From a virus, in IMG/VR virus record IMGVR_UViG_3300031949_000030, positions 686 through 64,685 of that record: a stretch of 64,000 bases of DNA; one strand, given 5' to 3'. Shown in pieces: positions 19,401 to 56,873 of the stretch; the stretch's first letter is position 1, and every line of letters starts with the position of its first letter. The position numbers were made by a program, and so were the translations under genes. Below the pieces are notes generated by a model. It did no database searches and was not told where the DNA came from. It was given only the letters and a program-made list of their open reading frames with translations.

Positions 19401-19411
19401 CGTACTACTTA

Positions 19412-27313: not shown

Positions 27314-27571
27314 CTAGCCGGTATACTTCTGCTTTACTTCCTGAAATACTACAGGCTGCTCTATTGACCCGAAACGCTCTATGAGACTCACAGCCTCCTT
27401 CACAGGGAACTTAGCTCCCCAGTCCAGGATAATCCGCAGAGTATCTATCATCTCACTGTTACCCTCTCCGTGTCCTATATAAGCCTTAGGTCGTCCCTCA
27501 GTGGTAACCATAAGCACTATTCCTACAGTCTTTGTGGAAGTGAACCACACTACTCCTAATACTTTACTCAT
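27314..27571 (-). CDS. Hypothetical protein (85 aa)
   Basis: ORF. Confidence 0.35.
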   Translation of the reverse strand: MSKVLGVVWFTSTKTVGIVLMVTTEGRPKAYIGHGEGNSEMIDTLRIILDWGAKFPVKEAVSLIERFGSIEQPVVFQEVKQKYTG

Positions 27572-28125
27572 TTGTTACATGCTATTAATAACATTGTGAA
27601 TTCCCTGCGAGGTCTGATAGTATAGATAGATACTCTGTTTCTAAGTAACCACTTTATCTCTCTGTGTCGTCCCTTACCTCTATAGATAATTTTTATGTCT
27701 CTGTCTGTAAAGTTCACAAGTGATCTGGGAGACTCCTGATATCGGAGCCTGCAGTAATCTATAGTATCCTTAAACTCTCTGACTCTAAAAAGTTTGGAGG
27801 CAGTACACCTATCAACATTTAGCCGCCAGGCAGAATATAGATCCCTGATCAATATTAAATGCAAGATTATGAGTAAAGGTTCTCTGCTTTCCAGATGTGT
27901 GAGACTTTTTATCAGATGTAACATATCATGCCTACTCACAGTACCTATAAGAGTATGTGCAGTAGTGTTCTTACCTCTACCAAGTAATATGGTGAGAAAA
28001 GGTACTCTCAGACCCGCGTCTGCAAGTGCTTCTACCAGATCCTTTTTGTAAGTCACAGTCTTCCACCCGGAGCTCTTAGTCTTCGGGCTGAGATTCTTCT
28101 TGTGGCTGTACTTATGAATAATCAT
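27568..28125 (-). CDS. Hypothetical protein (185 aa), basic
   Basis: ORF. Confidence 0.35.
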   Translation of the reverse strand: MIIHKYSHKKNLSPKTKSSGWKTVTYKKDLVEALADAGLRVPFLTILLGRGKNTTAHTLIGTVSRHDMLHLIKSLTHLESREPLLIILHLILIRDLYSAWRLNVDRCTASKLFRVREFKDTIDYCRLRYQESPRSLVNFTDRDIKIIYRGKGRHREIKWLLRNRVSIYTIRPRREFTMLLIACNK

Positions 28126-28536
28126 GGTCGTAGTATAAATAGTTTATCAGAGGCTCTTGTGTAGGCCGTATACTTGATTCGGTTACGCTCCACTATCCTC
28201 TTATTGTAGTCAAGGTCTTCCTCAAGGAGAAAGACGTTCTTGTAAGTCGAACCTTGCGGTTCTTCCTCTACCTTTTAGTAGAGGCCGGACTATATCTTAT
28301 GTCGTATCTACTCATAGTCAGCAGAGTGATACACAACATCTAACTGTTTCGAGCAATGATTATGCTCTACTCCCTTACGGGATAGTCTCTGAACCTTCAT
28401 CCTGTATTCAGGATGCTTGGCTGCGGATTGTCCAATCTCTATCTCTTTTACTAGGCTACAGTCATTACTGCTGTAGAGAGTGTGTAGAGCTCTAAGGATG
28501 TCCCCGTCAATTAAGTTAGTTTTACAAGACCCAAAG

Positions 28537-29892
28537 TTAAGCCTTGTGCACAGTAATAGCATAGTTATATTTCACCTGTGCAAACTCCCTCATGAAGTTG
28601 AAGTAGTTAATCCAGGATCCATTAGCTCCCGCACTCGCAATGGCTTTAGCCTTCAGTATTGAGAGTTCTGCTACATAGAGCCCGTGACTATCTTTATGCA
28701 GCACCCTAATAGTATCCTCCACATTAGTACCCTCACAGGTATTACACCTGATTCGGCACTCGTACGTCTTAAAGATCTTAGTTATCCCGAGTCTGTAGGG
28801 AGTGTGACTTCCTACTCTTACATCCAGGACTTCAAATTCATCAGAGGTATTAAACTTCACTCTCTGCTTAGCTCCATCATCAAGGATAGGTTTATCAGTT
28901 ATGAGCCAGTCTCCCTTAACTAACTCAGGCGTGTCTTTACCAAAGCGTATCTCCCGGATGATAGAATTCATAGAGCCTACCGTCTTATTACGCCAGGCAA
29001 GTACCTTTGCATAATTAGGATCTCTCTCAAACTGCCAGCAGTCAAAGTAGTCCTTGAGTAGTCCTCTGAGCCGGTCTCTCTCTGACTGATGTTTACTGTC
29101 AAGCCAGAATACACCGTTACCCTTAGAGTCAACCTCTATAGGTAAAAGCTTGGTTACAGGTTGTTCTGCACCCAGGTAAGTACGAATGGTAGTAGACAAT
29201 CTCACTATGGGATTATCCTGCTCCTGTCTCATTATCTGTGTGAGCTTCTCACGTACAAAGTAATATCCATCCTGGGATACCCCCGTGTCCTTCTTAAGAG
29301 GTATACAGTCCATCCTGTTCACAGGAGGTATCTGGCACCGGTCTCCCAGGAAGATGATATGTATACTGTCAGCATACTTGATCAGTTCTTTAAATAAGGA
29401 GTCATCCAGCATACTAACCTCATCCACGATAAGGACCCTGAAGTTATTGATCACACATCTATCAGCTTTCTTCTGCACGAAGAGTTGTTCACCCTTATCT
29501 GTGATTTCCTCGGTGAGTCCCAGGAGCTTATGTATAGTCATGAAAGCTACGCTATTCATGGACTCATCGAGCCTGCTGGCCCTATACAGAACATTCACTG
29601 CCTTATTGGTAGGAGCGGTCATAGCTATCTGCCAGCGTTTGTGAGTCCGGGTAATAAAGTTTACCAGCTTACTTATGAGAAAGGTTTTTCCCGTGCCTGC
29701 GTATCCCTCTATGACAATACTGGTATTTTTTACGGCATATCTCTGCTCTTGGGGAGAGATATACTTCTTTAGACGACTATAGATGGCAGCTTGCTCCTGA
29801 TTCATCCCATTAGATATGAGTAGCTCACTCTCCCTGATCATCTTCAGCATAGGATCTATAGATCTCTTCTTCATTACCACTGTATTTTGCAT
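28537..29892 (-). CDS. SF1B helicase, Dda/RecD/Pif1-like; C-terminus possibly truncated
   Basis: Walker A 'GYAGTGKTFLI'. Motif Ia 'MTAPTNKAV'. Walker B 'LIVDEVSMLD'. The ORF stops right after 'ITVHKA', where motif VI 'TVHKxQG' is expected. Confidence 0.6.
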   Translation of the reverse strand: MQNTVVMKKRSIDPMLKMIRESELLISNGMNQEQAAIYSRLKKYISPQEQRYAVKNTSIVIEGYAGTGKTFLISKLVNFITRTHKRWQIAMTAPTNKAVNVLYRASRLDESMNSVAFMTIHKLLGLTEEITDKGEQLFVQKKADRCVINNFRVLIVDEVSMLDDSLFKELIKYADSIHIIFLGDRCQIPPVNRMDCIPLKKDTGVSQDGYYFVREKLTQIMRQEQDNPIVRLSTTIRTYLGAEQPVTKLLPIEVDSKGNGVFWLDSKHQSERDRLRGLLKDYFDCWQFERDPNYAKVLAWRNKTVGSMNSIIREIRFGKDTPELVKGDWLITDKPILDDGAKQRVKFNTSDEFEVLDVRVGSHTPYRLGITKIFKTYECRIRCNTCEGTNVEDTIRVLHKDSHGLYVAELSILKAKAIASAGANGSWINYFNFMREFAQVKYNYAITVHKA

Positions 29893-31153: not shown

Positions 31154-31279
31154 TTACCAAGAGGTAAGGTCTGCACCAGTGTATTGGGAAGTATAGGTCA
31201 CCAGGCTGTTGAAGTTGTGGTTGTCGTTGTTCGAGTTCTGAAAGACTAACCTCCGACCAACAGCTAGCGTTAGATGCAT
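31154..31279 (-). pseudogene. Decayed duplicate of the C-terminal 'WYPYF...AVGRxLVF' domain (41-aa remnant ORF)
   Basis: Translates as 'MHLTLAVGRRLVFQNSNNDNHNFNSLVTYTSQYTGADLTSW', compared with the intact paralogs '..LAVGRRLVFRSSDYGDHYFYGLVAY..'. It shares a 26-nt identical run, 'aaagactaacctccgaccaacagcta', with the distal copy at 60144-60169. Confidence 0.5.
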
Positions 31280-31285
31280 AACCTG

Positions 31286-31771
31286 TTACATTAACTTTTC
31301 ATATATACTCGTGAAGGTCTTACCTACAAAGTCTGAAGTAGGCCTATCTTTAAAGGCCACCAGGCCGTTGAAGTAGTGGCCGTCGCCGTGCGAGATCCGA
31401 AAGACCAACCCCCGACCAACAGCGAACTCAAAGTAGGGATACCACTTGTACTGATCTTTATTTTTCCAGTCAACTTTATACTCTCTGTTAACTAGTTTAG
31501 CTATCTGCTCTAACTGTGTCCGGGCTAGTAATCTAACTTTGAGATATACTGGTATAGATCGGAAGTGCTTGAGAGTCAGCTCCTTTTCCCCTAACTCCTC
31601 ACATATATCTTTATAGTCTCTAATTCTGTGCTCCAGTGGCACTTCTAATAATAGCTTACTGGCTTTACCGGGGGGAATATTCAGAGTCTTAGATCTGATT
31701 ATACTAACAGCTAGGTAAACGTTCTCCTTATCAGGAGACTTAATCATCTTTTCAAGTTGGAGATAGTTCAT
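31286..31771 (-). CDS. WYPYF-domain family protein (161 aa), paralog A
   Basis: C-terminal 'KWYPYFEFAVGRGLVFRISHGDGHYFNGLVAFKDRPTSDFVGKTFTSIYEKL' is a paralog of the 60033..60455 product. The N-terminal 'KMIKSPDKENVYLAVSII' matches the small 'SPD-motif' family. Confidence 0.55.
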   Translation of the reverse strand: MNYLQLEKMIKSPDKENVYLAVSIIRSKTLNIPPGKASKLLLEVPLEHRIRDYKDICEELGEKELTLKHFRSIPVYLKVRLLARTQLEQIAKLVNREYKVDWKNKDQYKWYPYFEFAVGRGLVFRISHGDGHYFNGLVAFKDRPTSDFVGKTFTSIYEKLM

Positions 31772-32228: not shown

Positions 32229-32642
32229 TTATCTTAGGTTACCCCCGGCTTTATCCCCGAGTTCCATACAGGTTTCTATAGCCAGGGACAGGTCTTCGCT
32301 GGAGCACTTCCCGAAGGAGTACTCTACTAACACGGGCTCCCGGTCTTTCTGATGCTTGACAAATAATAGTCCGGATCTCTTCTTTACTACAAGTTTCATT
32401 TCTTCAAAGGTTGTTCCTGTCATCTTTGCCAGCTCCCGGATGCACTTGTGGAGCTTTGCCAGCTGAGCTAAGTTACCACTGTCATCATGGACATCAATAA
32501 AGAGGTCTATGAGCTGACCTTCCGGAATCAGTTTTATGAGTTCTTTATACTGGAGCTCATCTGCCCGACGTATATGCATGAGTTTATCCCCCTCCTTTTT
32601 CAGGGAGCAGGAGAAGGCGGTATTTATACCCTTCTTCTTCAT
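32229..32642 (-). CDS. Hypothetical protein (137 aa)
   Basis: ORF. Confidence 0.4.
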   Translation of the reverse strand: MKKKGINTAFSCSLKKEGDKLMHIRRADELQYKELIKLIPEGQLIDLFIDVHDDSGNLAQLAKLHKCIRELAKMTGTTFEEMKLVVKKRSGLLFVKHQKDREPVLVEYSFGKCSSEDLSLAIETCMELGDKAGGNLR

Positions 32643-32941
32643 CAGATGTGCTTAGTGAGATCTACTCTCCGGATAATCCAGGTAGTAGGTATCTTCAGAA
32701 TAATACCGTGCATCTCTGCACTATCATCATCCTCGGGTGTATACTTCATAGAGAGGAGGATATACTTCTTGGTCTGCTTAATCAACCAGCCTGTCTGTTT
32801 AATTACCCAACTACTCTTCTCTCCCCATACCAGGGCCTCTTTCTGTGTAGACCAGCTTTCCATTCGGGTTATGGCATCACACCACTCCAGGTATATAAGT
32901 TTGTACTTCTCTTTTTTCTTCTTGACCTTACTTTTGCTCAT
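32642..32941 (-). CDS. Hypothetical protein (99 aa), Lys-rich N-terminus
   Basis: ORF. Confidence 0.4.
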   Translation of the reverse strand: MSKSKVKKKKEKYKLIYLEWCDAITRMESWSTQKEALVWGEKSSWVIKQTGWLIKQTKKYILLSMKYTPEDDDSAEMHGIILKIPTTWIIRRVDLTKHI

Positions 32942-32953
32942 ATTCTTGTTTTA

Positions 32954-33030
32954 GCTCCCCCTGAAGGACTCGAACCTCCGTCTCCTGGCCATTGGCTGCC
33001 AAGCACTCTCACCACTGAGCTAAGAGGAAG
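32954..33030 (-). tRNA. tRNA with atypical (8-10 nt) anticodon loop; identity unresolved
   Basis: Minus-strand sequence CTTCCTC-TT-AGCTCAGTGGTGAGAGT-G-CTTGG-CAGCCAATGG-CCAGG-AGAC-GGAGG-TTCGAGT-CCTTC-AGGGGGAG. The acceptor stem pairs. The D-arm reads AGCTCAGTGGTGAGAGT and the T-arm GGAGG/TTCGAGT/CCTTC. The anticodon stem CTTGG/CCAGG encloses an oversized loop, or a 6-bp stem encloses the 8-nt loop AGCCAATG. No CCA is encoded. Confidence 0.6.
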
Positions 33031-33060
33031 ACCTTAACCGCCATGGTTAAGGCTTTAAAG

Positions 33061-33702
33061 TTATTTGTAATATCCTTCTACCGCATTATAGATACGTCTT
33101 ATACAGAAGGGAGTTACCTTACTGAAGAAACCGGAGAGATTAGGAAGAGCATATAATTTCTGATCCTTTATTACTCTCCACGGGGTTCTCTCTGTAGCTT
33201 TATGCACACTTGCAGAGATCAGATATAAGATATCCTCATCAGAGAGTTTCTTAGGTCTGAACTTGTCTGCTATAGCTGTTGCCAACATTCTGTCATCTCC
33301 CTCACGTGTTTTTGCTAAGAAGTAATCAGCATTCATCCACCCCCATAACTTAGGGTTAGGGGGAGGATAGAGTAATACAGGAGGTATGATATATACACCA
33401 GGCTCCTCTTGGGTTATTCCCTCTACCTGTTGCTGATGACTGTTACCACAAAGTGCCCTAAAACCTACATCTGCTGCTATGTCCCATATAGCAGGCCACC
33501 CATTTACACGAGGCATCTTGTTGTTTCTATCTATGTAGTCCCGATGACCTTGTACCCGGCCATAAATATCACCATTTCCTGAGATAGACCCTCCTGTCAC
33601 TTCCTCCCACCGACCTATAGTTATAAGGTTATATCCATGAAGTTCTGCCAGTGTAAGTAGCTGTATTACTCTCTTAGTCATAGGTTCTTTATTAAGGTTC
33701 AC
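33061..33702 (-). CDS. Hypothetical protein (213 aa)
   Basis: ORF. Confidence 0.4.
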   Translation of the reverse strand: MNLNKEPMTKRVIQLLTLAELHGYNLITIGRWEEVTGGSISGNGDIYGRVQGHRDYIDRNNKMPRVNGWPAIWDIAADVGFRALCGNSHQQQVEGITQEEPGVYIIPPVLLYPPPNPKLWGWMNADYFLAKTREGDDRMLATAIADKFRPKKLSDEDILYLISASVHKATERTPWRVIKDQKLYALPNLSGFFSKVTPFCIRRIYNAVEGYYK

Positions 33703-34294
33703 CGCTCCATATCTTGTAGCGGTTCTTTATGTGCCTGTTATATTCAGTGACTCTCCCGACATTATCTGAGAGCCCGTCATACTGGAGAGCTACCATGGGA
33801 TAGCATACATAACCATGCTGGTTACGCAGCTTCTTCCCACTGATCCACTTGTCCAGGTTAATAGTCGGGGGAGCACTAAGAATATCTCTATAGAAGAGGT
33901 CTCTTACTATGTAACAGTGGAGCCCGCTAAACTCGAGAATCCTCCCGAGATTGTTACTAACACCTGTTAGCTCCATATCATAGACCCCGGCGAGATAGAT
34001 CATCCAGTCTTTCGGGAGATACTTTCTGTGTTCCAGGAATCTCTGCATGGACAGGGGATGTGTAAACATGACGTCGTCCTCCATGATGAGAACTTCCTCA
34101 TACCCATGGTACATGGCCCAATTAACAGCACTCTTATGTGCGCTACAGATATTCTCTACGGGTTTCTTACTCAACTTCACAGCTGGGATAACTGCCACAT
34201 CCATGTGATTAATACCCTGCCCTGCCATCTCCTGGACAAAGAGAGTCTGCCGGTCCTCTCTCTTCTGATCATGTATGACTGCCATATGAATCAT
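33692..34294 (-). CDS. Glycosyltransferase family 25-like protein (weak)
   Basis: The N-terminal 'MAVIHDQKREDRQ...' and 'ICSAHKSAV' pattern resembles GT25 (LPS glycosyltransferase) 'IINL.R..R...' and 'GCxLSH' blocks. The similarity is low. Confidence 0.3.
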   Translation of the reverse strand: MIHMAVIHDQKREDRQTLFVQEMAGQGINHMDVAVIPAVKLSKKPVENICSAHKSAVNWAMYHGYEEVLIMEDDVMFTHPLSMQRFLEHRKYLPKDWMIYLAGVYDMELTGVSNNLGRILEFSGLHCYIVRDLFYRDILSAPPTINLDKWISGKKLRNQHGYVCYPMVALQYDGLSDNVGRVTEYNRHIKNRYKIWSGEP

Positions 34295-34551
34295 ATTCTA
34301 CCTATTTTAGTTAAGAGGTGTAGTAGAAGGTCAGTATCCCTGGTTGCAAGGAACTTGTCGCATCCCATAGTTCTATAAGGAGCATTGTTACTTATCATAG
34401 TACCTACTATGAAGTGAGGAGCATGTATCCTGCTGCACAATATATCCTGATTTCCTATGTTTAGTCCTCGGAAACCTATACAGGCCAGACACTCTTTGTA
34501 AGAGTTGTAATGAACTAGTAGAAGGAGTTCTTTGTGCTTATCTTGGGTCAT
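34291..34551 (-). CDS. Cys4 small-protein family, member 1 (86 aa)
   Basis: 'YKECLACIGFRG', then further Cys/His, then a C-terminal amphipathic helix 'DTDLLLHLLTKI'. Confidence 0.5.
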   Translation of the reverse strand: MTQDKHKELLLLVHYNSYKECLACIGFRGLNIGNQDILCSRIHAPHFIVGTMISNNAPYRTMGCDKFLATRDTDLLLHLLTKIGRI

Positions 34552-34795
34552 AACTCATGTGTTCTAGTAGTTCGAGTATCAGCTCTGTGTCCCGGTGCAT
34601 TTTGAAACTAGGGCATCCTCCTGACCAACTTGTCCTTCTGCCAGATGCAGGGAAACCTGACAGAGCGGCGTTATTACAGAGAACCATCCCTTCTTTGATG
34701 CCCTTACAACATGTGCAAGACTCACACTCACGTAAGCTGTTATGATTTATGAGTTCCAGGAAGTCCTCATGACATAGCACTACTTTATTCTTCAT
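34538..34795 (-). CDS. Cys4 small-protein family, member 2 (85 aa)
   Basis: 'LRECESCTCCKG', then distal Cys, then 'DTELILELLEHM'. Confidence 0.5.
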   Translation of the reverse strand: MKNKVVLCHEDFLELINHNSLRECESCTCCKGIKEGMVLCNNAALSGFPASGRRTSWSGGCPSFKMHRDTELILELLEHMSYDPR

Positions 34796-35072
34796 TCATT
34801 CTCTTGATTAAGTCTTGTACCAGAGATATATCTGCTGTTATCTCAAAGCCGACACCACATCCTACTGAATTCTTATCATGACTCTTCTCAGGATAGAAAC
34901 CGCAGACGCCTATCACTACACAGTGTATCTCTCTCTCTTTCACACCTGTGAAATTCCTGCAACATTTACACTCGAGGAAACCACTGTACTTAACCATTCT
35001 TAGTACATCAAAATGTCTTCTATCAAGTCTACCCCGGAGATGGGATCCTGCATTACTCTTCTTACTTTCCAT
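34785..35072 (-). CDS. Cys4 small-protein family, member 3 (95 aa)
   Basis: 'FLECKCCRNFTG', 'HC', 'GC', then 'DISLVQDLIKRM'. Confidence 0.5.
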   Translation of the reverse strand: MESKKSNAGSHLRGRLDRRHFDVLRMVKYSGFLECKCCRNFTGVKEREIHCVVIGVCGFYPEKSHDKNSVGCGVGFEITADISLVQDLIKRMNEE

Positions 35073-35361
35073 ATCTACCTCCTTCCTTCATCTCTAAGAG
35101 TATAGATAATATACCCCACATCTCTTGGGTCATCCGGAATTGTAAGCATCCTTTGGGAGTAGATGAACCAGAATGGTCCTCCTTAGATCGTGTGCCTACA
35201 TATCCTGCTATCTGGCACCACATTGCATCCTTCTCTACTATACCTGAGAAGTTACGGCAGGATCGGCACTCCTTGAAGCTGTTGTACTTAATTCTCTTAA
35301 GTAACTCATTATGACTCTTCTCGAGTTTAGCCCGTAATGAGATCTTCTCACCAAAATTCAT
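35062..35361 (-). CDS. Cys4 small-protein family, member 4 (99 aa)
   Basis: 'FKECRSCRNFSG', 'WC', 'GC', then 'EMWGILSILLEM'. Confidence 0.5.
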   Translation of the reverse strand: MNFGEKISLRAKLEKSHNELLKRIKYNSFKECRSCRNFSGIVEKDAMWCQIAGYVGTRSKEDHSGSSTPKGCLQFRMTQEMWGILSILLEMKEGGRYGK

Positions 35362-35627
35362 GATATGTGTTTTTTAGATAGAGGAAATTGTTGAAGCAGC
35401 ATGTAGTAGAGCAGAGAGTCGATCATAAGGAAATCGGGGTTACCTACTGATAGACTACAGCTACCAGAGCCTAGTATAAGCTCTACGCTAAGGTTGTAGC
35501 CAGGAGCACAGGATATTGTTCCCAAAACTGCTCCGTGGTAATGTATACACGCCTCACACTCCTTTATGCCATCCAGAGTGCCCTGAGTCTTAGTCTGTAT
35601 CATAGCTCTACCATGTTTGTTCTTCAA
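35358..35627 (-). CDS. Cys4 small-protein family, member 5 (89 aa)
   Basis: 'IKECEACIHYHG', 'SC', 'SC', then 'DFLMIDSLLYYM'. Confidence 0.5.
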   Translation of the reverse strand: MKNKHGRAMIQTKTQGTLDGIKECEACIHYHGAVLGTISCAPGYNLSVELILGSGSCSLSVGNPDFLMIDSLLYYMLLQQFPLSKKHIS

Positions 35628-35832
35628 CTTCAGATAAGAGTATCAGCTCTCCCTGCTCTTGCTTTAGATCAGCTTCATAGTATACCCTCTTGCGGGTCCG
35701 GAGTTTCTCTCTTACGAGATTTACTGCTTCCTCTCCTTTAATCTCGAAGTGGAGACTATGGTCTCTGTTACATATGAGTACCTTCGTGACCCCGTCGGGG
35801 GTATAAGGTGACTGCTGTACTTTAACTATCAT
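35608..35832 (-). CDS. Hypothetical protein (74 aa) embedded in the array; not a family member
   Basis: ORF without the CxxC signature. Confidence 0.35.
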   Translation of the reverse strand: MIVKVQQSPYTPDGVTKVLICNRDHSLHFEIKGEEAVNLVREKLRTRKRVYYEADLKQEQGELILLSEVEEQTW

Positions 35833-36137
35833 AAGTTCCTCCTTTTAGTGAACCATGCTGTACGATTTATGTACTCGGGCCTCATTTCGTAATCTTCCTC
35901 ACTACCACCGAGCATCTCGAGGTATATGGATGCTAACATCTGCTGATCATCATCAGCAGTCATACTTCTGCAATATCCTCTATGGATCGTAGCCATAAAA
36001 GTATCATTATGATATGCACAAGCAAAGAAGCTCCGGTGAAAATGTAATTTCTCCCTGTGTATACACCTCCTGCAACTAGTCTGATAGACTTTATATATAT
36101 CATTATCAAGGGTACGGTCATGCTGGTGATTCTTCAT
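35829..36137 (-). CDS. Cys4 small-protein family, member 6 (102 aa)
   Basis: 'YQTSCRRCIHREK', 'FACAYH', 'YCRS', then 'QQMLASIYLEML'. Confidence 0.5.
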   Translation of the reverse strand: MKNHQHDRTLDNDIYKVYQTSCRRCIHREKLHFHRSFFACAYHNDTFMATIHRGYCRSMTADDDQQMLASIYLEMLGGSEEDYEMRPEYINRTAWFTKRRNL

Positions 36138-36352
36138 AAGGGTTCCCTCATCTTGTTAATTATCCAGTTTACCATCATGAAGTCATCATTATTATAGTGG
36201 TTTGGACAAAAGTCCTCCAGTACGATGGAGGGTCTCGGGTAACCTCCTAGTTTATAACAGTGTATAAACCCTGAGTTTCCGATACCAGTCCCGAACCTAC
36301 AGGTTTTACACCAGTTGTTGTAAAACTCTATGTATTTGTACCTGTTTCTCAT
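36134..36352 (-). CDS. Cys4 small-protein family, member 7 (72 aa)
   Basis: 'YNNWCKTCRFGTG', 'HC', 'FC', then 'DFMMVNWIINKM'. Confidence 0.5.
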   Translation of the reverse strand: MRNRYKYIEFYNNWCKTCRFGTGIGNSGFIHCYKLGGYPRPSIVLEDFCPNHYNNDDFMMVNWIINKMREPL

Positions 36353-36582
36353 CTCACTGGCTTCCTTCCTCCCATAACCTGTGTCATTAACATGTGTAAC
36401 TTCTGTATAAGGATCATATCCTCAGTGTAAGAATGACCCATACAATATCCTCTGGGTGGAGTTACAGCGTAAGATCTGTAGAAAGTACACGTGGTACGTA
36501 CCCGGGATCTCTTAGTGCGAGCTCCCTGAGAGTTTACACAATGCTGACATTTAGCTCTATAGTTTTCCAGGGACTTGCTCAT
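36349..36582 (-). CDS. Cys4 small-protein family, member 8 (77 aa)
   Basis: 'YRAKCQHCVNSQG', 'TC', 'YC', then 'EDMILIQKLHMLM'. Confidence 0.5.
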   Translation of the reverse strand: MSKSLENYRAKCQHCVNSQGARTKRSRVRTTCTFYRSYAVTPPRGYCMGHSYTEDMILIQKLHMLMTQVMGGRKPVR

Positions 36583-36820
36583 AAGACGTAGGGTGAAGTA
36601 GTTCTCGGTTACTGATCTTCATAGCATATATCAGCAGATCTATAACCTCGTATCGATAGTCAGCTTGATAGCAACTCATGTCAAAACGACGAAAGTAGTC
36701 TTCCCTTTTCAACCATCTCCTGGGAAGGCGAAGGTGGGTTGTGTGATCACACCATATTATATGGGAAGTTACTTCCCTGAAGCTAATACACTTATCACAG
36801 GTTCTTGTGGGCTTCTTCAT
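36557..36820 (-). CDS. Cys4 small-protein family, member 9 (87 aa)
   Basis: 'TRTCDKCISFRE', 'WC', 'SC', then 'EVIDLLIYAMK'. Confidence 0.5.
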   Translation of the reverse strand: MKKPTRTCDKCISFREVTSHIIWCDHTTHLRLPRRWLKREDYFRRFDMSCYQADYRYEVIDLLIYAMKISNRELLHPTSYEQVPGKL

Positions 36821-36977
36821 ATTAGCTGGCTTTTACTTCCCGGTGACAGTATACACACTCCCATATCGGGGTGCCTGTTTTACGACCGCTTCCCTTAATT
36901 ATCCGGTAACGGTGAGGCCCTTGATTATTATGAGGACACTTCCTCTTCTTACTTTTTAAAATAGTAATCATATTCAT
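36821..36977 (-). CDS. Unlisted small zinc-ribbon ORF (51 aa) in the array gap
   Basis: Manual translation of the minus strand gives 'MNMITILKSKKRKCPHNNQGPHRYRIIKGSGRKTGTPIWECVYCHREVKAS'. It fills the 36821-37022 gap, and its stop abuts the start of member 9. Confidence 0.3.
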
Positions 36978-37022
36978 AGCGATAGTGTACCATTATAGAG
37001 ATTGTATGCTTTACACTTGTTC

Positions 37023-37247
37023 CTAACCTCTGGCGAAAGTGCTATGTCTCATATACCAGTAGAGGCGGGTGATAACGTAAAGGTCGGAGATGTAATCATG
37101 CTGGTTACAGTGAGTGCTTAACGGATAACTATCTATCAAAGGATAGCCACACAAGACTTTGTTACCGCTGCTAAGTCCTCCTGAGAACTTGCAGGTAGCG
37201 CAAGCACTAATCTTATATACCTTGATGGGTCTTACTTCTTGCATCAT
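37023..37247 (-). CDS. Cys4 small-protein family, member 10 (74 aa)
   Basis: 'SACATCKFSGG', 'LC', 'HC', then 'DYISDLYVITRLYWYM'. Confidence 0.5.
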   Translation of the reverse strand: MMQEVRPIKVYKISACATCKFSGGLSSGNKVLCGYPLIDSYPLSTHCNQHDYISDLYVITRLYWYMRHSTFARG

Positions 37248-37506
37248 GAATTCTTCTTATGTAGACTGCTGAGTTGTATGACATAAAAGCTATAAGTCTC
37301 CTTATCATATAAATATCATCCCGGAAACCGTGCTTGTCACAACTATACATGAGTATAGATGGAGAGATCTTCGGTGAGAGTATCCTCTCTCTTGCATACC
37401 AGTGGTGATTACAGTGCACTTTATGTTTTACAGGACCACCCGTGTGGATAAGCTCCAGACCTCCACTATGTCGGCAGGTCTTGCACGCTTTCTCGTATAA
37501 ACTCAT
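37213..37506 (-). CDS. Cys4 small-protein family, member 11 (97 aa)
   Basis: 'YEKACKTCRHSGG', 'HC', 'SC', then 'DDIYMIRRLIAFM'. Confidence 0.5.
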   Translation of the reverse strand: MSLYEKACKTCRHSGGLELIHTGGPVKHKVHCNHHWYARERILSPKISPSILMYSCDKHGFRDDIYMIRRLIAFMSYNSAVYIRRIHDARSKTHQGI

Positions 37507-37744
37507 AGGTAGTCCGGGTTTTAGGATGATGCATTCTTTGGATTATGGAGGTACAGAGATGATGTGCATGTCTTTCATGTAGAGGTACGTGACAGTTTGA
37601 GATAAATCTCAAGTTTAGGTAACTCCTTCCGTGCCATTTACAGATGACATGGGGACCAGGGAAAGTGTGTTCCACACCACCTGCATACCGGCAGGTAGCA
37701 CAGTTATCCTTATAGAACCGTAACCCCGTCTCTGAATTTCCCAT
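37466..37744 (-). CDS. Cys4 small-protein family, member 12 (92 aa)
   Basis: 'YKDNCATCRYAGG', 'IC', 'NC', then a His-rich helical tail. Confidence 0.5.
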   Translation of the reverse strand: MGNSETGLRFYKDNCATCRYAGGVEHTFPGPHVICKWHGRSYLNLRFISNCHVPLHERHAHHLCTSIIQRMHHPKTRTTYEFIRESVQDLPT

Positions 37745-37985
37745 GGTTCACCCGCATTTGGTAAAGTATATTGTGAATTATAGCCTCCCGTCTTTCTATA
37801 AGAGATATCCCACACGAAGCGATGTAACCTAAACTTGATAGTGTAGGTCCCCTAAATTTACAGATAAACAGACGTTTCATAGGAGCAGGTTTATCTGTCC
37901 AGATCATCCCTCCTCTGTATTTACACTTGGCACAGTTGTTCTTATAGAGTTCTAAGCCCTTCGACTGTTCTTCTGAGGTTTTCAT
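37710..37985 (-). CDS. Cys4 small-protein family, member 13 (91 aa)
   Basis: 'YKNNCAKCKYRGG', 'IC', 'SC', then 'EAIIHNILYQM'. Confidence 0.5.
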   Translation of the reverse strand: MKTSEEQSKGLELYKNNCAKCKYRGGMIWTDKPAPMKRLFICKFRGPTLSSLGYIASCGISLIERREAIIHNILYQMRVNHGKFRDGVTVL

Positions 37986-38301
37986 GTCTTAGGAAGTCAT
38001 AGTGTTGTTGTCTTGTATAATTAGGGACTCTACCCAACATGGTCAGGTTTATAGTAAAGATGAGAGTCATATCAGAGGTGAGCTGTTTGTCATGGATGAC
38101 ACATGGCATATTGATATCAGCCAAAGGGTAATTAAGGGGTGACCTTAACGAACGGTCAGGATGTCTGCACCATATAACTGTTTTGGGAACCCATACAGAG
38201 CCTATAAGAGAGGGTATATACCCGCTGTTGAAGATGCACCCCTTACATCCATCTTTAAAACGCTCACTCAGGTTATAGAAGTATTTACTCATGGATCCCA
38301 C
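37942..38301 (-). CDS. Cys4 small-protein family, member 14 (119 aa)
   Basis: 'FKDGCKGCIFNSG', 'WC', 'PC', then 'SDMTLIFTINLTML'. Confidence 0.5.
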   Translation of the reverse strand: MGSMSKYFYNLSERFKDGCKGCIFNSGYIPSLIGSVWVPKTVIWCRHPDRSLRSPLNYPLADINMPCVIHDKQLTSDMTLIFTINLTMLGRVPNYTRQQHYDFLRHENLRRTVEGLRTL

Positions 38302-38663
38302 TGTCTTAGATTTAGTCCCAGCTCTACCACTTTCTGGAATAACTGGTCTTTCTCATTCTTAAGCTTCCTCTTTTCACTCCGGAGCTTCACTATCCGCTCC
38401 TGAAGCAGCTTATTCTTCTCCACAAGGGAGTGTATATGCTGACCCTTGACAGACTCCAGTACTTCTTTCTGTACTTCATCCTTCTGAGTTCTTAGCTTAT
38501 GCTCGAGTTCCTGCATAAGGGACTGGCATTCTCCCAGCTCCTGTCGGGAGGTAGAGAGTTGCTTCTTCAGATCCTTTATCTCGGTCTCGGCAAATAATAG
38601 TCTCTGCAGATCGTTTAACGGCCGCAGGGACATTAACGGCTCTTCAGCCGGGTCTTTGGGCAT
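38289..38663 (-). CDS. Coiled-coil protein (124 aa)
   Basis: Heptad-like Leu/Glu/Lys/Gln-rich sequence 'LKKQLSTSRQELGECQSLMQELEHKLRTQKDEVQKEV'. Confidence 0.4.
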   Translation of the reverse strand: MPKDPAEEPLMSLRPLNDLQRLLFAETEIKDLKKQLSTSRQELGECQSLMQELEHKLRTQKDEVQKEVLESVKGQHIHSLVEKNKLLQERIVKLRSEKRKLKNEKDQLFQKVVELGLNLRQWDP

Positions 38664-39000
38664 CTGTGACAGATGTAATCTTATAACGTTCCTTAAGCCA
38701 CTCTACAGTGAGCTCTGGCTTAAACTTCATAGCATCATCGAGGCGGGTCCTTATCGGATCTATATTCTCGTGATATCTCCTCATGTCCTTTGCGAACATG
38801 GTTATAATCTCAGCATAGGGATCAGGTCTCCCGTTGTTAGCTACGATCTGTCCTACAGCCTCCCAGTAGACAGGAGTCTCTACCCCACAGTCTATGAAAG
38901 CCTGCTTGATATCATTGACAGCCTCTATGGCATGCCTGAGGTCAGGGTACTTACCCAGTATCCTCTTTGCGGATGACTCCGGTGAAGTTCTTGTGTTCAT
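38644..39000 (-). CDS. Hypothetical protein (118 aa)
   Basis: ORF. Confidence 0.4.
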   Translation of the reverse strand: MNTRTSPESSAKRILGKYPDLRHAIEAVNDIKQAFIDCGVETPVYWEAVGQIVANNGRPDPYAEIITMFAKDMRRYHENIDPIRTRLDDAMKFKPELTVEWLKERYKITSVTDAQRPG

Positions 39001-39413
39001 TCGATAGTTACTTTAAGTCCGTTTTCCTGTAAGGCCTCCTTAATAGGTCTGAGGACTTTCATAGTCCCCCGTTTCACGTCACACTTCCCGTTGTTATGTA
39101 CTATGAGAGCGCACTGTAAGGCTTGTTCCTCCTGATGCTTACAGTACTTTACCAGGCAGGAGATGACATGATTAAAATTATTCACGTCATCATTATGGAG
39201 TATAATCATGTTCTCCTTCTTAACTTCAGTCTTGTCCATGACCAGTACATCTTCTTCGTGATCTGTACCTAGATTCCTTAGCATAAGCATTCTCTTAAAG
39301 CAAGCAGGTAGGTGCCGCAGGTTAGTAACATTACAGATACAGCTCCCAGGAGTACAGATAATATCATATCTCCCTTCCTGGCTTGTATGATGGCACCAGC
39401 TGTAGTTACACAT
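38997..39413 (-). CDS. clpS: ClpS-like ATP-dependent Clp protease adaptor homologue (N-terminal Cys-rich extension, or a later start at 39290)
   Basis: 'MIILHNDDVNNFNHVISCLVKYCKHQEEQALQCALIVHNNGKCDVKRGTMKVL' aligns with the ClpS core 'VILLNDDYTPMEFVIDVL...A..LML.VH..G.A.CGV...VAE.KV'. Confidence 0.65.
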   Translation of the reverse strand: MCNYSWCHHTSQEGRYDIICTPGSCICNVTNLRHLPACFKRMLMLRNLGTDHEEDVLVMDKTEVKKENMIILHNDDVNNFNHVISCLVKYCKHQEEQALQCALIVHNNGKCDVKRGTMKVLRPIKEALQENGLKVTIE

Positions 39414-41229: not shown

Positions 41230-41706
41230 TTATATCAGTATAAGCTTTAGCAACAGGGGAAGCGGGATACCTATCTGGTGATATCTGCAGTATTCGCTCA
41301 GGTCTGATGCACGGGCTTTGAGAGCATTTATAGCATTAATCTTCATGGTACTTCTGTTAGAGGGGTGGACATAGACCTTTCTTATAAGGTCTACATCTTC
41401 CTCCCATCTCTTAAGATTTACATCATGTGCAAGAGCTGTGGGATTAAATTCAGGTATCGATATCTCCCAGCGATTTCTTACTGCTTGTCTACTCATATGC
41501 ATATGTCTTGTTGTTGTTCTTGAATAAGTTCTCTCAGTAAAAAGCACATGGCTTCTCCCGAGTAAGGTAGCTATGGGGAAATGCTCCCCATAGCTAAATA
41601 TAACACTTCCTTCGAAGTAGTAGTTCCCTGTAGGAGTGCGGGCGCTATCCTGAGTCTGTTCGACCCAGAGCCTGGCAACTTCCCGTGGAGAAACTACTTT
41701 TCTCAC
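41230..41706 (-). CDS. Hypothetical protein (158 aa)
   Basis: ORF. Confidence 0.4.
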   Translation of the reverse strand: MRKVVSPREVARLWVEQTQDSARTPTGNYYFEGSVIFSYGEHFPIATLLGRSHVLFTERTYSRTTTRHMHMSRQAVRNRWEISIPEFNPTALAHDVNLKRWEEDVDLIRKVYVHPSNRSTMKINAINALKARASDLSEYCRYHQIGIPLPLLLKLILI

Positions 41707-43127
41707 TGGAACTCCGTCTTGACTATGTGATTGAGCAGATGACTTACCTGCTTAGGCATATCATCAAGATTCATCACTACGGTATTATACGGATATATAT
41801 GTTTCACATGTCCACTTAGTATACCTACTCCGGCTGTTACGAACTCATCTCTCTTACACTTCTCCACTATCTGCTTAAGCTGTTTTACAGCAACCGTTCC
41901 TCCATAATCTCGTCCTGCAGGTTGACCATCTGAGAGACTAATGAATATTATACGGTCACTTGTCATGGACCGGACTCTCTCGTACACCTTCTCAGTTATA
42001 GGACCATCATAATTCTCTGAGCGACTGCGAGACATCATTTTGTCTATGGTCATATCAAAGTTAAGGTTGTGAGGATCATGATATACAAACAGGTGTGGTG
42101 TATCAGATCCGGAGTGTCCATACATATATATCTTATCAGCAGGCAGTATCTGGGAGAAAGCACAGAAGAGTGCCTTCACAACATGGTACTGTGTCTCTAT
42201 AGGTGAACCGTTCATACTACCTGATTCATCCGCCAGTATAACTATACTAAAAGGCCTGGTAGATTGCTTCTCGATAACCTGGCTGTACACACACAGGTTA
42301 CCTGCAGGAATCTCTGCAATCTTGCTGGTATCGAGTCTTCCTAATCTCAGGCTCTTCACCACGTCCTCCTTAGGATCAAAGGTGATGTCCAGTAGCTTGA
42401 TGAGAGATTCGGCGGCAGTTGATTCTTCACTTGAGTAAATAGTTTCCTCAATATCCTCCTGGATTTTTACCTCTACCTCCTTGGTGAAGGTATTAATCCT
42501 GTCACTGCTCCACCAGGGTTCTTCCTCCCTGGTATCTTCTAAAGCTTCTCTAAAGACCTTAGATATCTGGTCAGGTGAGGTAGGTTTCTTACTATCATTA
42601 CACTCAGAGTCATTTTCTTCCTCATTCTCTCCGGGAGAAGGTTTGGGCTTTCTTCCAGATCCTCCTTTATTATCCTTCTCCAGGTCATAGTACATACCTG
42701 AACTCAGGATAAAGGATATATAGTGTGTAAACAGGGGAGCCGTCTCCTGATCATAGACACATACCTTGTTGTAACAGTAAGTCAGGCTATCTGAGCTTAC
42801 GGTGACCCTTGTCACCTCTTTCTCCTTATTAAAGAAGGATGCCCTTGATCTTTCCTGAGTTGTTACAGCTCCTTTCATCAGCGCATCCACAAGTTTGTAC
42901 TTTACTATCCTGTGGAGTAATATCTTCAGGAGCTTCTCTTTCTCAAACCACGGGAGCCAGAAACCCTTGTCTTCTCCGTGAATAAAGGTGAGATTACTGT
43001 CCACCTTAATATAAGGATGATCTGATATCACCCTGGTAAAGCCACCGTAGTAGGAGGTCTCCCATTGAGAGACGCTCCCGCCATAGTCAGCATATGACCT
43101 TTTTTTACTTCTTTTAAACCAGCTCAT
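41703..43127 (-). CDS. VWA-domain protein (pair 2)
   Basis: MIDAS 'VILADESGSMNGSPIE'. A C-terminal VWA-like alpha/beta region. Sits immediately downstream of an AAA+ ATPase. Confidence 0.55.
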   Translation of the reverse strand: MSWFKRSKKRSYADYGGSVSQWETSYYGGFTRVISDHPYIKVDSNLTFIHGEDKGFWLPWFEKEKLLKILLHRIVKYKLVDALMKGAVTTQERSRASFFNKEKEVTRVTVSSDSLTYCYNKVCVYDQETAPLFTHYISFILSSGMYYDLEKDNKGGSGRKPKPSPGENEEENDSECNDSKKPTSPDQISKVFREALEDTREEEPWWSSDRINTFTKEVEVKIQEDIEETIYSSEESTAAESLIKLLDITFDPKEDVVKSLRLGRLDTSKIAEIPAGNLCVYSQVIEKQSTRPFSIVILADESGSMNGSPIETQYHVVKALFCAFSQILPADKIYMYGHSGSDTPHLFVYHDPHNLNFDMTIDKMMSRSRSENYDGPITEKVYERVRSMTSDRIIFISLSDGQPAGRDYGGTVAVKQLKQIVEKCKRDEFVTAGVGILSGHVKHIYPYNTVVMNLDDMPKQVSHLLNHIVKTEFQ

Positions 43128-43130
43128 AGA

Positions 43131-44057
43131 TTAAGTCTTCTCAGTATCAAGTATAGTCTGCACAGCTTTGAGTCCTTCTACACCCCCGATACCCTTACAG
43201 ATAGCATGATAGGAGTCGTAGATAGTAAAACCATTACACACCAGAGTACATATAGTCTTCAGGTGCCTCATAGATAAGTTGAAACTGATCTTGAACTCAT
43301 TATGCTCCTTGTTGATCTTGTAATAGACCTTGACTATCTTTGTAGCTTTCTCAGATTTCAGAGCCGGGTGTGTGACACTCAGGCTCTGCGCAAGGTTAAT
43401 CTCATCCAAAGGATCTACAGTTATCATCATGAACCGGTCCACTAAGGCTCTATCGAGCTTATGTGTGCCAGTATACTGAGAGCCTATGTTAGCTGTGGCA
43501 AAGAACACGCACTTAGAGTGAACCTTTACAGGCTCAGTATCATCAAAAGCATACTCCATAGAGAGCTCCCTGCGGAAGTCAAGACATGGAAAGAGCAGAT
43601 TATTACTCATCGCTGCACTCCTGCTTATTTCATCACAGAGAATGATCCCGGGATTCTGTATAAGTTCCGAGAACCTGCTTCTTCTGAATTCTGAGTAGGA
43701 CTTTCCGTCTTTGACTGTGATAACGTGGGTTCCTACTAATCCCATAACCGGATCGGTCATAGTACCCATGTCAAGTATTGTCAGAGGTACATTCATGACC
43801 TTGGCCATATTTGATACCATCTCTGTCTTTCCCTGCCCTGTAGGGCCTACAAGCAGGGTATTAATACCCTTCCGTATATTATGCTCAAGGATCTTAAATG
43901 TCCCTGTAGCTAGTTTGAAGTATCCGTTAAGTGTAGTCATAGTCTCTGTTATAACTATATCCTCTGATATCTTACCGGATCTTTTCCTGGTCTTACTCAC
44001 TGGTGACTCCGCTGTCATAACGGCACCGTCCAGTGGAAATTCTGCTGTCTCTGTCAT
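43131..44057 (-). CDS. MoxR/CobS-like AAA+ ATPase (pair 2)
   Basis: Walker A 'LLVGPTGQGKTEMV'. Walker B 'GIILCDEISRS'. 'FFATANIGSQYTG' is sensor-like. Confidence 0.6.
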   Translation of the reverse strand: MTETAEFPLDGAVMTAESPVSKTRKRSGKISEDIVITETMTTLNGYFKLATGTFKILEHNIRKGINTLLVGPTGQGKTEMVSNMAKVMNVPLTILDMGTMTDPVMGLVGTHVITVKDGKSYSEFRRSRFSELIQNPGIILCDEISRSAAMSNNLLFPCLDFRRELSMEYAFDDTEPVKVHSKCVFFATANIGSQYTGTHKLDRALVDRFMMITVDPLDEINLAQSLSVTHPALKSEKATKIVKVYYKINKEHNEFKISFNLSMRHLKTICTLVCNGFTIYDSYHAICKGIGGVEGLKAVQTILDTEKT

Positions 44058-53165: not shown

Positions 53166-53311
53166 AAGGCTACTGCCTGCAGGAAGTAACTAAGATCATC
53201 CTGGTAAACTCCTCCTATAGGTATATAACCTCTGGTAAGATACTTATTTACCATATCCTCTAGAATATTTAGAGTAGATGCTTTCAGTATACTGTACTCT
53301 CTGTACATACC

Positions 53312-55111: not shown

Positions 55112-55158
55112 GATAGTGGATATGGTTCTAGTTCAAGGGAGTCTATAATCATGTATTC

Positions 55159-56868: not shown

Positions 56869-56873
56869 GGTGC

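What the first reader, a model, noticed from the sequence alone, without database searches (positions are those of the whole stretch)
34291..38301. 4-kb tandem array of at least 14 diverged paralogs encoding small Cys4 proteins with a conserved C-terminal amphipathic helix
Fourteen consecutive, translationally coupled minus-strand genes of 72-119 aa share the signature [YF]-[KN]-x(1-3)-C-x2-C-[RK]-x-[SFA]-G-G, then two more Cys or His-Cys at variable spacing, then a helix of the form D-x2-L-[IL]-x2-L-x3-M. Sequence divergence between the copies is high, and a 74-aa non-member and a 51-aa zinc-ribbon ORF are interspersed. This is the pattern expected for a rapidly diversifying family under selection. 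Candidate roles are a battery of DNA- or RNA-binding zinc-finger regulators, or of anti-defence or host-takeover effectors each targeting a host-factor variant. I do not recognise the family.
Basis: seen in the sequence. Interest (0 to 1): 0.8.

Follow-up and report, generated by a model that had tools for sequence, protein, structure and literature searches.

The report
Private 14-copy Cys4 gene array in phage
An uncultured phage carries 14 old, very diverged tandem copies of a small four-cysteine protein that was found nowhere else among about 15 billion public proteins; the array is real and new, but its job (most likely a set of metal-stabilised binders aimed at host factors) is inferred, not shown.

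Summary
Window 34291-38301 (minus strand) is tiled by 16 ORFs. Fourteen of them (72-119 aa) form one family with four conserved Cys and a conserved C-terminal helix. Leave-one-out HMMs recover every member (E 2.5e-11 to 2e-3; best non-member 0.08-1.8). All 16 ORFs score best in their own frame.

The family matches nothing in Pfam, PHROGs, NCBIfam, PADLOC, PDB sequences or GenBank phages. An exhaustive HMMER scan of 1.84 billion cluster representatives, and two word-index searches, returned only this contig's own proteins. AlphaFold models are of modest confidence (pLDDT 64-69) and have no fold neighbours.

The array lies in a hypervariable slot between a ClpS-like gene and a conserved 137-aa gene, within the replication module of a roughly 126-kb phage. 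The helicase's best matches are phages of Bacteroidota. Relatives (53% identity or less) carry unrelated genes in this slot. Similarity falls with distance along the array, which points to local duplications. These are ancient: synonymous sites are saturated.

"Rapid diversification" is therefore untestable here. The helix is hydrophobic rather than amphipathic, and the literal signature fits only 2 of 14 copies. The same window holds a second private family of 12 copies. Function remains inferred.

The parts
37942..38301 (-). m01, Cys4 family member, 119 aa from GTG (116 aa from ATG 38292 as called in the source, P0002). Cys 19, 22, 45, 67. Weakest member.
   Evidence: (leave-one-out E 2.2e-3)
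37710..37985 (-). m02, member, 91 aa. Cys 18, 21, 42, 58. Overlaps m01 by 44 nt.
   Evidence: (E 1.2e-8)
37466..37744 (-). m03, member, 92 aa. Closest paralog of m02 (39% aa identity). C-terminal helix degenerate. Not called by the source's gene finder.
   Evidence: (E 1.1e-6)
37213..37506 (-). m04, member, 97 aa. Cys 8, 11, 32, 56. Modelled with AlphaFold2 (pLDDT 63.8).
   Evidence: (E 2.5e-11)
37023..37247 (-). m05, member, 74 aa (73 aa in the source call). Cys 16, 19, 33, 47.
   Evidence: (E 6.9e-10)
36978..37022 (-). The only real intergenic gap in the array (45 nt). It contains a TATAAT hexamer; no significant promoter was called.
36822..36977 (-). Interspersed 51-aa basic ORF with C-P-H ... 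C-x2-C-H. Not a family member.
36557..36820 (-). m06, member, 87 aa. Cys 8, 11, 24, 50. Divergent.
   Evidence: (E 5e-4)
36349..36582 (-). m07, member, 77 aa. Cys 12, 15, 32, 47. Not called by the source's gene finder.
   Evidence: (E 1.2e-7)
36134..36352 (-). m08, member, 72 aa, the most compact. Cys 15, 18, 32, 49. Modelled with AlphaFold2 (pLDDT 68.9). Not called by the source's gene finder.
   Evidence: (E 7.6e-8)
35829..36137 (-). m09, member, 102 aa. Cys 22, 25, 40, 56.
   Evidence: (E 3.8e-6)
35608..35832 (-). Interspersed 74-aa acidic ORF with a single Cys. Not a family member.
35358..35627 (-). m10, member, 89 aa from TTG (81 aa from ATG in the source call). Cys 24, 27, 40, 57.
   Evidence: (E 8.3e-6)
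35062..35361 (-). m11, member, 99 aa. Cys 32, 35, 49, 72. The Logan assembly breaks inside it (35216/35228).
   Evidence: (E 3.3e-10)
34785..35072 (-). m12, member, 95 aa. Closest paralog of m11 (33% aa identity).
   Evidence: (E 7.1e-8)
34538..34795 (-). m13, member, 85 aa, 7 Cys.
   Evidence: (E 3.6e-9)
34291..34551 (-). m14, member, 86 aa. Cys 21, 24, 39, 64. Not called by the source's gene finder.
   Evidence: (E 1.3e-6)
32643..38996 (-). Lineage-specific accessory slot that holds the array. It also holds the 118-aa and 124-aa ORFs upstream, the 200-aa and 213-aa ORFs downstream, and a tRNA. It is bounded by the conserved ClpS-like gene (38997-39413) and the conserved 137-aa gene (32229-32642). 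In related phages this slot is 0.9-6.9 kb of unrelated genes.

Best explanation
Shown. The array is a real, lineage-private multigene family. Fourteen co-oriented, mostly overlapping genes each encode a small (72-119 aa) protein built on one scaffold:
- an N-terminal helix ending in h-x2-[YF]-[KN];
- a C-x2-C-x4-G knuckle;
- a beta-hairpin ending in the third Cys;
- a loop of variable length and sequence (13-25 residues);
- a fixed C-terminal module, C4-x2-[H/F]-x4-D-x2-h-[IL]-x2-[LI]-h-x2-M.
The family grew by local tandem duplications inside a hypervariable accessory slot of the replication/early gene module. The phage is an uncultured one of about 126 kb. The copies are old and all remain intact.

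Inferred. The four Cys hold one structural metal ion, most likely Zn. The conserved residues are the fold's core. The variable hairpin insert, the C3-C4 loop and the tails give each paralog its own binding surface. The array is therefore a co-expressed battery of small binders, each aimed at a different host protein or defence-system variant (host takeover or counter-defence).

Confidence. About 0.85 for the shown part and about 0.35 for the functional mechanism. The figure given below is for the whole statement.
For: - Real genes. The ORFs tile the strand and all 16 score best in their own frame. An independent assembly gives the identical sequence.
- One family. Leave-one-out HMMs recover every member. 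The Cys columns are conserved, and the pattern counts far exceed those in the other 470 ORFs.
- One metal site. Ten of 14 copies have exactly 4 Cys. Cys makes up 5.0% of residues, against 1.6% elsewhere in the phage.
- Common topology. Two AlphaFold2 models agree on helix, knuckle, hairpin, loop, helix.
- Local duplication. Similarity falls with distance in the array (Spearman -0.46, permutation p = 2e-4), and best partners are mostly neighbours.
- Old copies. No DNA repeat longer than 27 nt remains, and dS is saturated.
- Accessory slot. Helicase and ClpS on one side, and the 137-aa gene and UDG-like gene on the other, are syntenic in relatives. The gene content between them differs completely.
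- Private family. Only self hits came back from 1.84 billion representatives and from two word-index searches of 5.8 billion clusters.
- Precedent. Phage counter-defence loci are known to expand by tandem amplification (PMC9391042, PMC13096335).
Against: - There is no direct evidence of metal binding, expression or any target.
- There is no similarity to any known anti-defence or host-takeover protein.
- Positive selection cannot be shown because dS is saturated.
- Experimentally observed amplifications of counter-defence loci are recent, near-identical and unstable. These copies are ancient and stable.
- The AlphaFold2 models are only moderately confident (pLDDT 64-69, pTM 0.36-0.41), and I could not inspect the Cys geometry.
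- The phage also carries other private expanded families. Expansion may therefore reflect a general property of this genome rather than selection on this family.
Confidence: 0.4

Rival explanations
1. The proteins are nucleic-acid-binding regulators. In this reading they are small zinc-finger transcription or translation factors, or DNA-coating proteins, that act on phage or host DNA or RNA during the early or middle programme.
For: Most members are basic: 11 of 14 have pI of 8.6 or more. A basic residue commonly follows the CxxC. The array lies inside the replication module. From general knowledge, small phage Cys4 regulators exist (Ogr/Delta, Com, TraR/DksA-like).
Against: The phage's other small ORFs are just as basic (median pI 9.1 against 9.0; p = 0.25). 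No member hits Pfam Ogr_Delta, zf-dskA_traR or any other DNA-binding model at E of 1 or below. Fourteen regulators in one operon, absent from every relative, would be unusual for a core regulatory role.
Confidence: 0.2
2. The four Cys bind an iron-sulfur cluster rather than zinc, and the proteins act as redox or cluster-dependent sensors or effectors.
For: The spacing C-x2-C-x(12-22)-C-x(13-25)-C, with an aromatic or His residue three residues after the last Cys, resembles the spacing I recall for HiPIP-type [4Fe-4S] proteins. This is a recollection, not a test.
Against: hhalign against Chromatium HiPIP gives 0.4% probability. No Pfam Fe-S family hit appears. There are no signal peptides. No Fe-S assembly or redox partner genes were found among the neighbours I annotated.
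Confidence: 0.1
3. The copies assemble with each other, through the conserved hydrophobic C-terminal helix, into one hetero-oligomeric particle or scaffold. The paralogs would then be subunits of a single machine rather than independent effectors.
For: The most conserved block is a hydrophobic, non-amphipathic helix, which fits a buried interface. Tight translational coupling of all copies favours co-production. All copies are retained intact despite great age.
Against: No structural or virion genes lie nearby. The family is absent from every related phage, which argues against an essential structural role. The helix may simply be the core of each monomer.
Confidence: 0.1
4. The array is near-neutral genomic ballast. 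It would be the product of a duplication-prone replication or recombination system in this phage, kept only because the capsid has spare capacity.
For: The same window holds several other private expanded families and adjacent paralog pairs. The second large family also has no relatives elsewhere.
Against: With dS saturated, neutral copies would have acquired stops and lost the Cys. All 14 keep open frames, the four Cys, the fixed C4-to-Asp spacing and phage-like codon usage. For the two pairs where dS was computable, dN is below dS (dN/dS about 0.34-0.43; rough).
Confidence: 0.08

Closest known systems
Small phage Cys4 zinc-finger proteins (P2 Ogr / P4 Delta, Mu Com, TraR/DksA-type C4 fingers)
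   Same: Size (60-100 aa), four Cys beginning with a C-x2-C knuckle, phage-encoded, often basic.
   Different: Those families have a second paired knuckle (C-x2-C or C-x4-C) and occur as one copy, or two fused. Here Cys3 and Cys4 are single residues 13-25 apart. No member matches any Pfam zinc-finger model at E of 1 or below. There are 14 copies.
Zinc-type ribosomal protein uS14/eS29 knuckle
   Same: It shares the local motif C-x2-C-x4-G-h ... h-x-C. It was the only PDB sequence match to the family profile.
   Different: The match is not significant (E 0.4-0.6). hhalign against bacterial uS14 gives 0.15% probability. The second CxxC and the rest of the protein do not correspond.
Multigene families of large eukaryotic DNA viruses (for example ASFV MGF families and poxvirus host-range gene families; from general knowledge)
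   Same: Tandem arrays of strongly diverged paralogs in variable genome regions, private to a lineage, and thought to act on host defences.
   Different: Those are eukaryotic viruses with larger proteins and known folds. Arrays of this copy number appear to be rare in tailed phages of about 126 kb; this is my recollection, and no comparable phage case surfaced in my literature searches. The function here is untested.
Segmental amplification ('accordion') of counter-defence loci in T-even phages (PMC9391042; PMC13096335)
   Same: Tandem multiplication of small early accessory genes in a phage. This is a plausible way for the array to have originated.
   Different: Amplified units there are near-identical, recent and unstable. 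Here no DNA repeat longer than 27 nt survives and synonymous sites are saturated.
Polyimmunity loci of polymorphic toxin systems (for example SUKH arrays, PMC3113570)
   Same: Tandem arrays of diverged small paralogs, each thought to neutralise a different variant of a target.
   Different: Those are bacterial chromosomal loci with known folds. No sequence or fold relationship was found here.

Membership tests
Zinc ribbon | Two zinc knuckles (C-x2-C ... C-x2-C), each on a beta-hairpin | tested here: not met
Treble-clef zinc finger | An N-terminal knuckle plus two ligands from the first turn of a C-terminal helix | tested here: inconclusive
   Cys4 lies 8 residues before the helix cap, not in its first turn. 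The models are of modest confidence and I could not inspect coordinates. No fold match was found.
DnaJ-type CxxCxGxG finger / anti-TRAP | Repeated C-x2-C-x-G-x-G motifs | tested here: not met
   The register here is C-x2-C-x(3,4)-G, and it occurs once per protein. There is no Pfam hit. hhalign against the DnaJ-like 8-Cys protein in the same slot of relative L002 gives 5.7%.
Ogr/Delta, TraR/DksA, Com phage zinc fingers | Match to the Pfam models, and C-x2-C ... C-x2/4-C spacing | tested here: not met
   No Pfam, PHROGs or NCBIfam family matches at E of 1 or below beyond single chance hits.
uS14/eS29 zinc knuckle | Significant profile match over the knuckle and the following helix | tested here: not met
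   PDB profile search gives E 0.4-0.6. hhalign against T. thermophilus uS14 gives 0.15%.
HiPIP-type [4Fe-4S] proteins | C-x2-C-x(~16)-C-x(~13)-C spacing with aromatic shielding, and sequence or fold similarity | tested here: not met
   The spacing is similar. hhalign gives 0.4% and there is no Pfam hit. Metal content cannot be tested with these tools.
Viral tandem multigene family | Several diverged paralogs adjacent on one strand, with similarity highest between neighbours, in a variable genome region | tested here: met
   There are 14 members. Spearman -0.46, p = 2e-4. The slot is variable among relatives.
Recent segmental amplification (accordion) | Near-identical direct DNA repeats of the unit | tested here: not met
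   The longest direct repeats are 26-27 nt at 65-74% identity. pS is 0.70-0.84.
Phage anti-defence / host-takeover proteins | Binding to, or inhibition of, a host defence or host factor | not testable with these tools
   Only circumstantial evidence exists: small early-region ORFan genes in a hypervariable slot. PADLOC models defence systems rather than counter-defence, and it gave no hit.
RiPP precursor peptide array | A conserved leader with a hypervariable core, and an adjacent maturation enzyme | tested here: not met
   Conservation lies at both ends with a structured Cys scaffold. The products are 72-119 aa. No maturase-like gene was found among the neighbours I annotated.

The most novel reading that the evidence does not exclude
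This phage lineage builds and keeps private multigene families. The window holds at least the 14-copy Cys4 family and a 12-copy 'RVG' family, plus smaller ones, all without relatives in about 15 billion proteins. They would serve as a diversified host-interaction arsenal, the phage counterpart of the multigene families of ASFV or poxviruses. In this reading the Cys4 scaffold is a fold born in this lineage, and its loops have been repeatedly retargeted.
Probability: 0.25. Interest if true: 0.8.

Novelty: new variant of a known kind. Interest (0 to 1): 0.6.

Why it matters
Tailed-phage genomes are compact, and I know of few with long arrays of diverged paralogs. A 4-kb block (about 3% of the genome) given over to 14 intact, ancient copies of a protein seen nowhere else implies sustained selection for diversity on one small metal-binding scaffold. 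If the copies are counter-defence or host-takeover binders, the array offers 14 natural variants of one scaffold, ready for target discovery. It would also be a clear case of multigene-family evolution in a phage. Together with the second private family in the same window, it marks this uncultured lineage (its helicase best matches Bacteroidota phages) as a place to study how phages create new genes. A practical point: the source's gene caller missed 4 of the 14 members, so such arrays are easily under-counted.

Tried and rejected
- Known-family searches of all 14 members gave nothing beyond single chance hits: Pfam, PHROGs, PADLOC, NCBIfam.
- A profile search of PDB sequences found only the uS14/eS29 knuckle at E 0.4-0.6. 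I rejected that lead by hhalign.
- Homolog searches returned only self: the word-index search at E of 0.001 and again at E of 10, and the exhaustive representative scan. tblastn of two members against GenBank phages, and megablast of the array, gave nothing meaningful.
- Back-translated pattern search of IMG/VR failed because the alignment is too diverged.
- The flanking 200-aa gene has no relatives in IMG/VR.
- I asked whether the family derives from other small Cys proteins found in the same slot in relatives. It does not: the L002 8-Cys DnaJ-like protein scores 5.7%, and the 'MPDITMC' four-Cys family scores 0.15%.
- It is unrelated to the window's second array (0.07%).
- The HiPIP-like spacing lead scored 0.4%.
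- dN/dS between copies is uninformative because dS is saturated.
- A charge argument for nucleic-acid binding fails, because pI does not differ from the phage's other small ORFs.
- I tested whether the nearby tRNA with an 8-nt anticodon loop (CCAA) could fuse overlapping array genes by quadruplet decoding of UUGG. It could not: only 3 in-frame UUG-G sites lie in array genes, and none reads through into the next gene.
- A cassette, phase-variation or DGR mechanism is unlikely: there are no long inverted or direct repeats.
- No Rfam family lies in the array.
- Promoter and terminator scans were not above shuffled expectation.
- The sample accession was not found in the literature, and there are no relatives in GTDB genomes.

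Full report
**1. Observation**

Window 34291-38301 is tiled on the minus strand by 16 ORFs. Thirteen of the 15 internal junctions overlap by 4-44 nt, one has a 1-nt gap and one a 45-nt gap.

Fourteen ORFs of 72-119 aa align as one family. Three Cys columns are invariant and the fourth is nearly so; its single exception is an alignment shift in 36349-36582. A conserved block follows the last Cys. Ten of the 14 have exactly four Cys.

I tested the grouping without circularity. An HMM built from 13 members retrieves the left-out member at E 2.5e-11 to 2.2e-3, while the best non-member among the window's 484 ORFs scores 0.08-1.8. The two weakest members are 36557-36820 and 37942-38301.

All 16 ORFs score best in their own frame under a codon model trained on the phage's long genes. 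Two contigs from an independent Logan assembly of run SRR9005073 cover the array with no mismatch inside it.

The interspersed 74-aa ORF (35608-35832) and the 51-aa Cys/His ORF (36822-36977) are present and are not members.

- The signature as literally written matches only 2 of 14 copies. The relaxed C-x2-C-x(3,4)-G matches 12 of 14, against 3 of 470 other ORFs. A core pattern spanning all four Cys and the helix matches 10 of 14 against 0 of 470.
- The C-terminal helix is conserved but hydrophobic rather than amphipathic. Mean hydrophobic moment is 0.27, which is not above shuffles for most copies.

**2. Anatomy**

The conserved parts are:
- an N-terminal helix ending in h-x2-[YF]-[KN];
- C1-x2-C2-x4-G-h;
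- a hairpin whose second strand ends in h-x-C3;
- a variable loop of 13-25 residues;
- a fixed module, C4-x2-[H/F]-x4-D-x2-h-[IL]-x2-[LI]-h-x2-M.

The C4-to-Asp spacing is 8 residues in nearly all copies.

AlphaFold2, run on the 14-sequence alignment, gives the same topology for two members: helix, knuckle, hairpin, loop, helix. Confidence is modest (pLDDT 63.8 and 68.9; pTM 0.36 and 0.41). I could not inspect coordinates, so the metal-site geometry is inferred.

The variable parts are an insert inside the hairpin, the C3-C4 loop and both tails.

**3. Evolution of the array**

Three subgroups are visible: 37023-38301, 35829-36582 and 34291-35627. Each member's best partner is usually its neighbour. 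Similarity falls with distance in the array (Spearman -0.46, permutation p = 2e-4). This indicates stepwise local duplication.

The duplications are old. No direct DNA repeat longer than 27 nt survives. The closest pairs share 33-39% of residues, and their synonymous differences are at saturation (pS 0.70-0.84). dN/dS is therefore uninformative, and "rapid diversification" can be neither shown nor excluded.

What can be said is that intact frames, ligands and spacing have been kept for a very long time. That argues for purifying selection on every copy.

**4. Context**

The window is the replication/early region of a phage. Annotated genes include:
- DNA polymerase (phrog_1252), primase, a Sak4-like protein and an exonuclease;
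- an SF1 helicase, a UDG-like protein, two MoxR-AAA/VWA pairs, an SNF2-like helicase, DUF6166 and ClpS.

The source contig is 125,705 bp, and its proteins are singletons in the public collection. No GenBank phage is close: the polymerase is at most 34% identical, and the helicase at most 29%, mostly to phages of Flavobacterium, Bacteroides and crAss-like groups. A Bacteroidota host is therefore an inference.

Twenty-eight related loci were fetched through the helicase, all at 62% identity or less over the best-matching segment (46-53% for those that carry the whole gene); GC is about 30%, against 44% here. They share the order helicase, ClpS, [slot], 137-aa gene, UDG-like gene. The slot is 0.9-6.9 kb of unrelated genes that differ from phage to phage.

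None of these loci encodes a family member. The array, with its four flanking ORFs and a tRNA, fills this hypervariable slot.

**5. Is the family known?**

No. There is no match in Pfam, PHROGs, PADLOC or NCBIfam. An exhaustive HMMER scan of 1.84 billion representatives of about 15 billion proteins found 10 hits, all from this contig. Two word-index searches, one at E of 10 or below, also found only self.

The PDB profile search gave only the uS14/eS29 knuckle at E 0.4-0.6, which I rejected by hhalign. There were no fold neighbours. Leads from Cys spacing were all negative: the DnaJ-type finger, HiPIP, and two other small Cys proteins found in the same slot in relatives.

One caveat applies. 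A 79-position profile cannot see very distant relatives in a library of that size.

**6. Mechanism**

Shown: this is a real, private family, tandemly duplicated and intact, located in an accessory slot.

Inferred: it has one structural metal site, with Zn most likely. The conserved residues form the core and the variable loops form the binding surfaces. The array would then be a co-expressed set of small binders directed at different host or defence targets.

Tandem expansion of counter-defence loci is documented in T-even phages (PMC9391042, PMC13096335). Those amplifications are recent and near-identical, unlike these copies.

The rivals are nucleic-acid-binding regulators, Fe-S proteins, subunits of one hetero-oligomer, and neutral ballast. 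Charge gives no support to the first, since pI is 9.0 against 9.1 for other small ORFs. Conservation of frames and ligands at saturated dS argues against the last.

**7. A wider pattern**

The same window holds other private expansions:
- a 12-member 'RVG' family spread over 53755-63333;
- a 3-member family interleaved with it;
- several adjacent paralog pairs.

The RVG family also has only self hits and is unrelated to the Cys4 family. Family expansion is thus a habit of this genome. That raises the interest of the lineage. It also weakens any argument that this one array reflects a special selective pressure.

**8. Verdict**

This is a new protein family arranged as a tandem viral multigene family, a known kind of arrangement that I recall being unusual for phages. 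Its function is unproven. Interest is 0.6.

Noticed in passing
window 53755-63333 (-): A second private multigene family of at least 12 small ORFs, with the motif Y-x-[IL]-R-V-G-x-x-L-Y ... G-K ... [LI]-I-[ED]-S-[IA]-E-[IL]-[VI]. Members: 53755-54195, 54555-54872, 54869-55111, 55159-55353, 58382-58663, 61047-61331, 61775-62056, 62062-62289, 62286-62531, 62542-62832, 62832-63071, 63100-63333. There is no Pfam hit, and only self hits in the 5.8-billion-cluster search. It is unrelated to the Cys4 family.
   Followed up: partly
window 54328-54558, 58688-59116, 61365-61778 (-): A third small family, with the N-terminal motif ..L-[DE]-x-[YF]-N-F-[KV]..A..QL.., interleaved with the RVG family.
   Followed up: no
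window 49549-50095, 52983-53308, 56491-57272; 31154-31771 and 60033-60455 (-): Further adjacent paralog pairs, plus one dispersed trio. Gene duplication is widespread in this phage.
   Followed up: no
window 28266-28611 (-): A group I intron (Rfam RF00028, 67.8 bits, full-length model). It begins inside the 3' end of the SF1 helicase ORF 28537-29892, so the helicase gene is probably split, with the 185-aa ORF 27568-28125 a candidate downstream exon.
   Followed up: no
window 32955-33029 (-): A tRNA (Rfam 45.2 bits) with an 8-nt anticodon loop, AGCCAAUG. ARAGORN reports a four-base anticodon, CCAA. It may be a frameshift-suppressor-like or defective tRNA. I tested a link to fusion of overlapping array genes and rejected it.
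   Followed up: partly
window 101-5938 and 5942-11482 (+): Two adjacent giant ORFs (1945 and 1846 aa) on the opposite strand. The first carries a C-terminal DUF7831. Neither has a PHROG match.
   Followed up: no
window 18198-20647 and 41703-44057 (-): Two separate pairs of a MoxR-type AAA ATPase with a VWA or metallopeptidase-VWA protein (DUF2201; CobT/CobS-like) in one phage.
   Followed up: no
window 38997-39413 (-); L002-L011: A ClpS-like adaptor gene (Pfam ClpS, E 3e-16) sits immediately downstream of the SNF2-like helicase. It is conserved at that position in all the related phage loci that extend that far.
   Followed up: partly
window 37466-37744, 36349-36582, 36134-36352, 34291-34551: Four of the 14 family members were not called as genes in the source or Logan annotation and are absent from the protein collection. 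Small overlapping genes like these are under-called.
   Followed up: yes
window 35216-35228 (inside 35062-35361): The Logan assembly of SRR9005073 breaks into two contigs exactly here, overlapping by 13 nt. This may reflect an assembly-graph branch, meaning strain variation or a copy-number variant inside the array.
   Followed up: no
L002 12278-12556 (+): In the closest relative, the same slot holds a 92-aa, 8-Cys protein with two DnaJ-type CxxCxGxG motifs. It is not related to the Cys4 family by hhalign.
   Followed up: yes
L005 8417-8617, L006 8953-9189, L010 13280-13534, L011 2359-2580 (+): Relatives carry a different small four-Cys family in the slot (M-P-[DN]-I-x-M-C-x4-C-x5-C-x-R-F ... 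C-D). It is unrelated to the array family.
   Followed up: yes
window 33692-34294 (-): The 200-aa ORF just downstream of the array has a sub-threshold match to glycosyltransferase family 25 (E 0.053, 13.8 bits against a cut-off of 24). It has no relatives in IMG/VR.
   Followed up: partly
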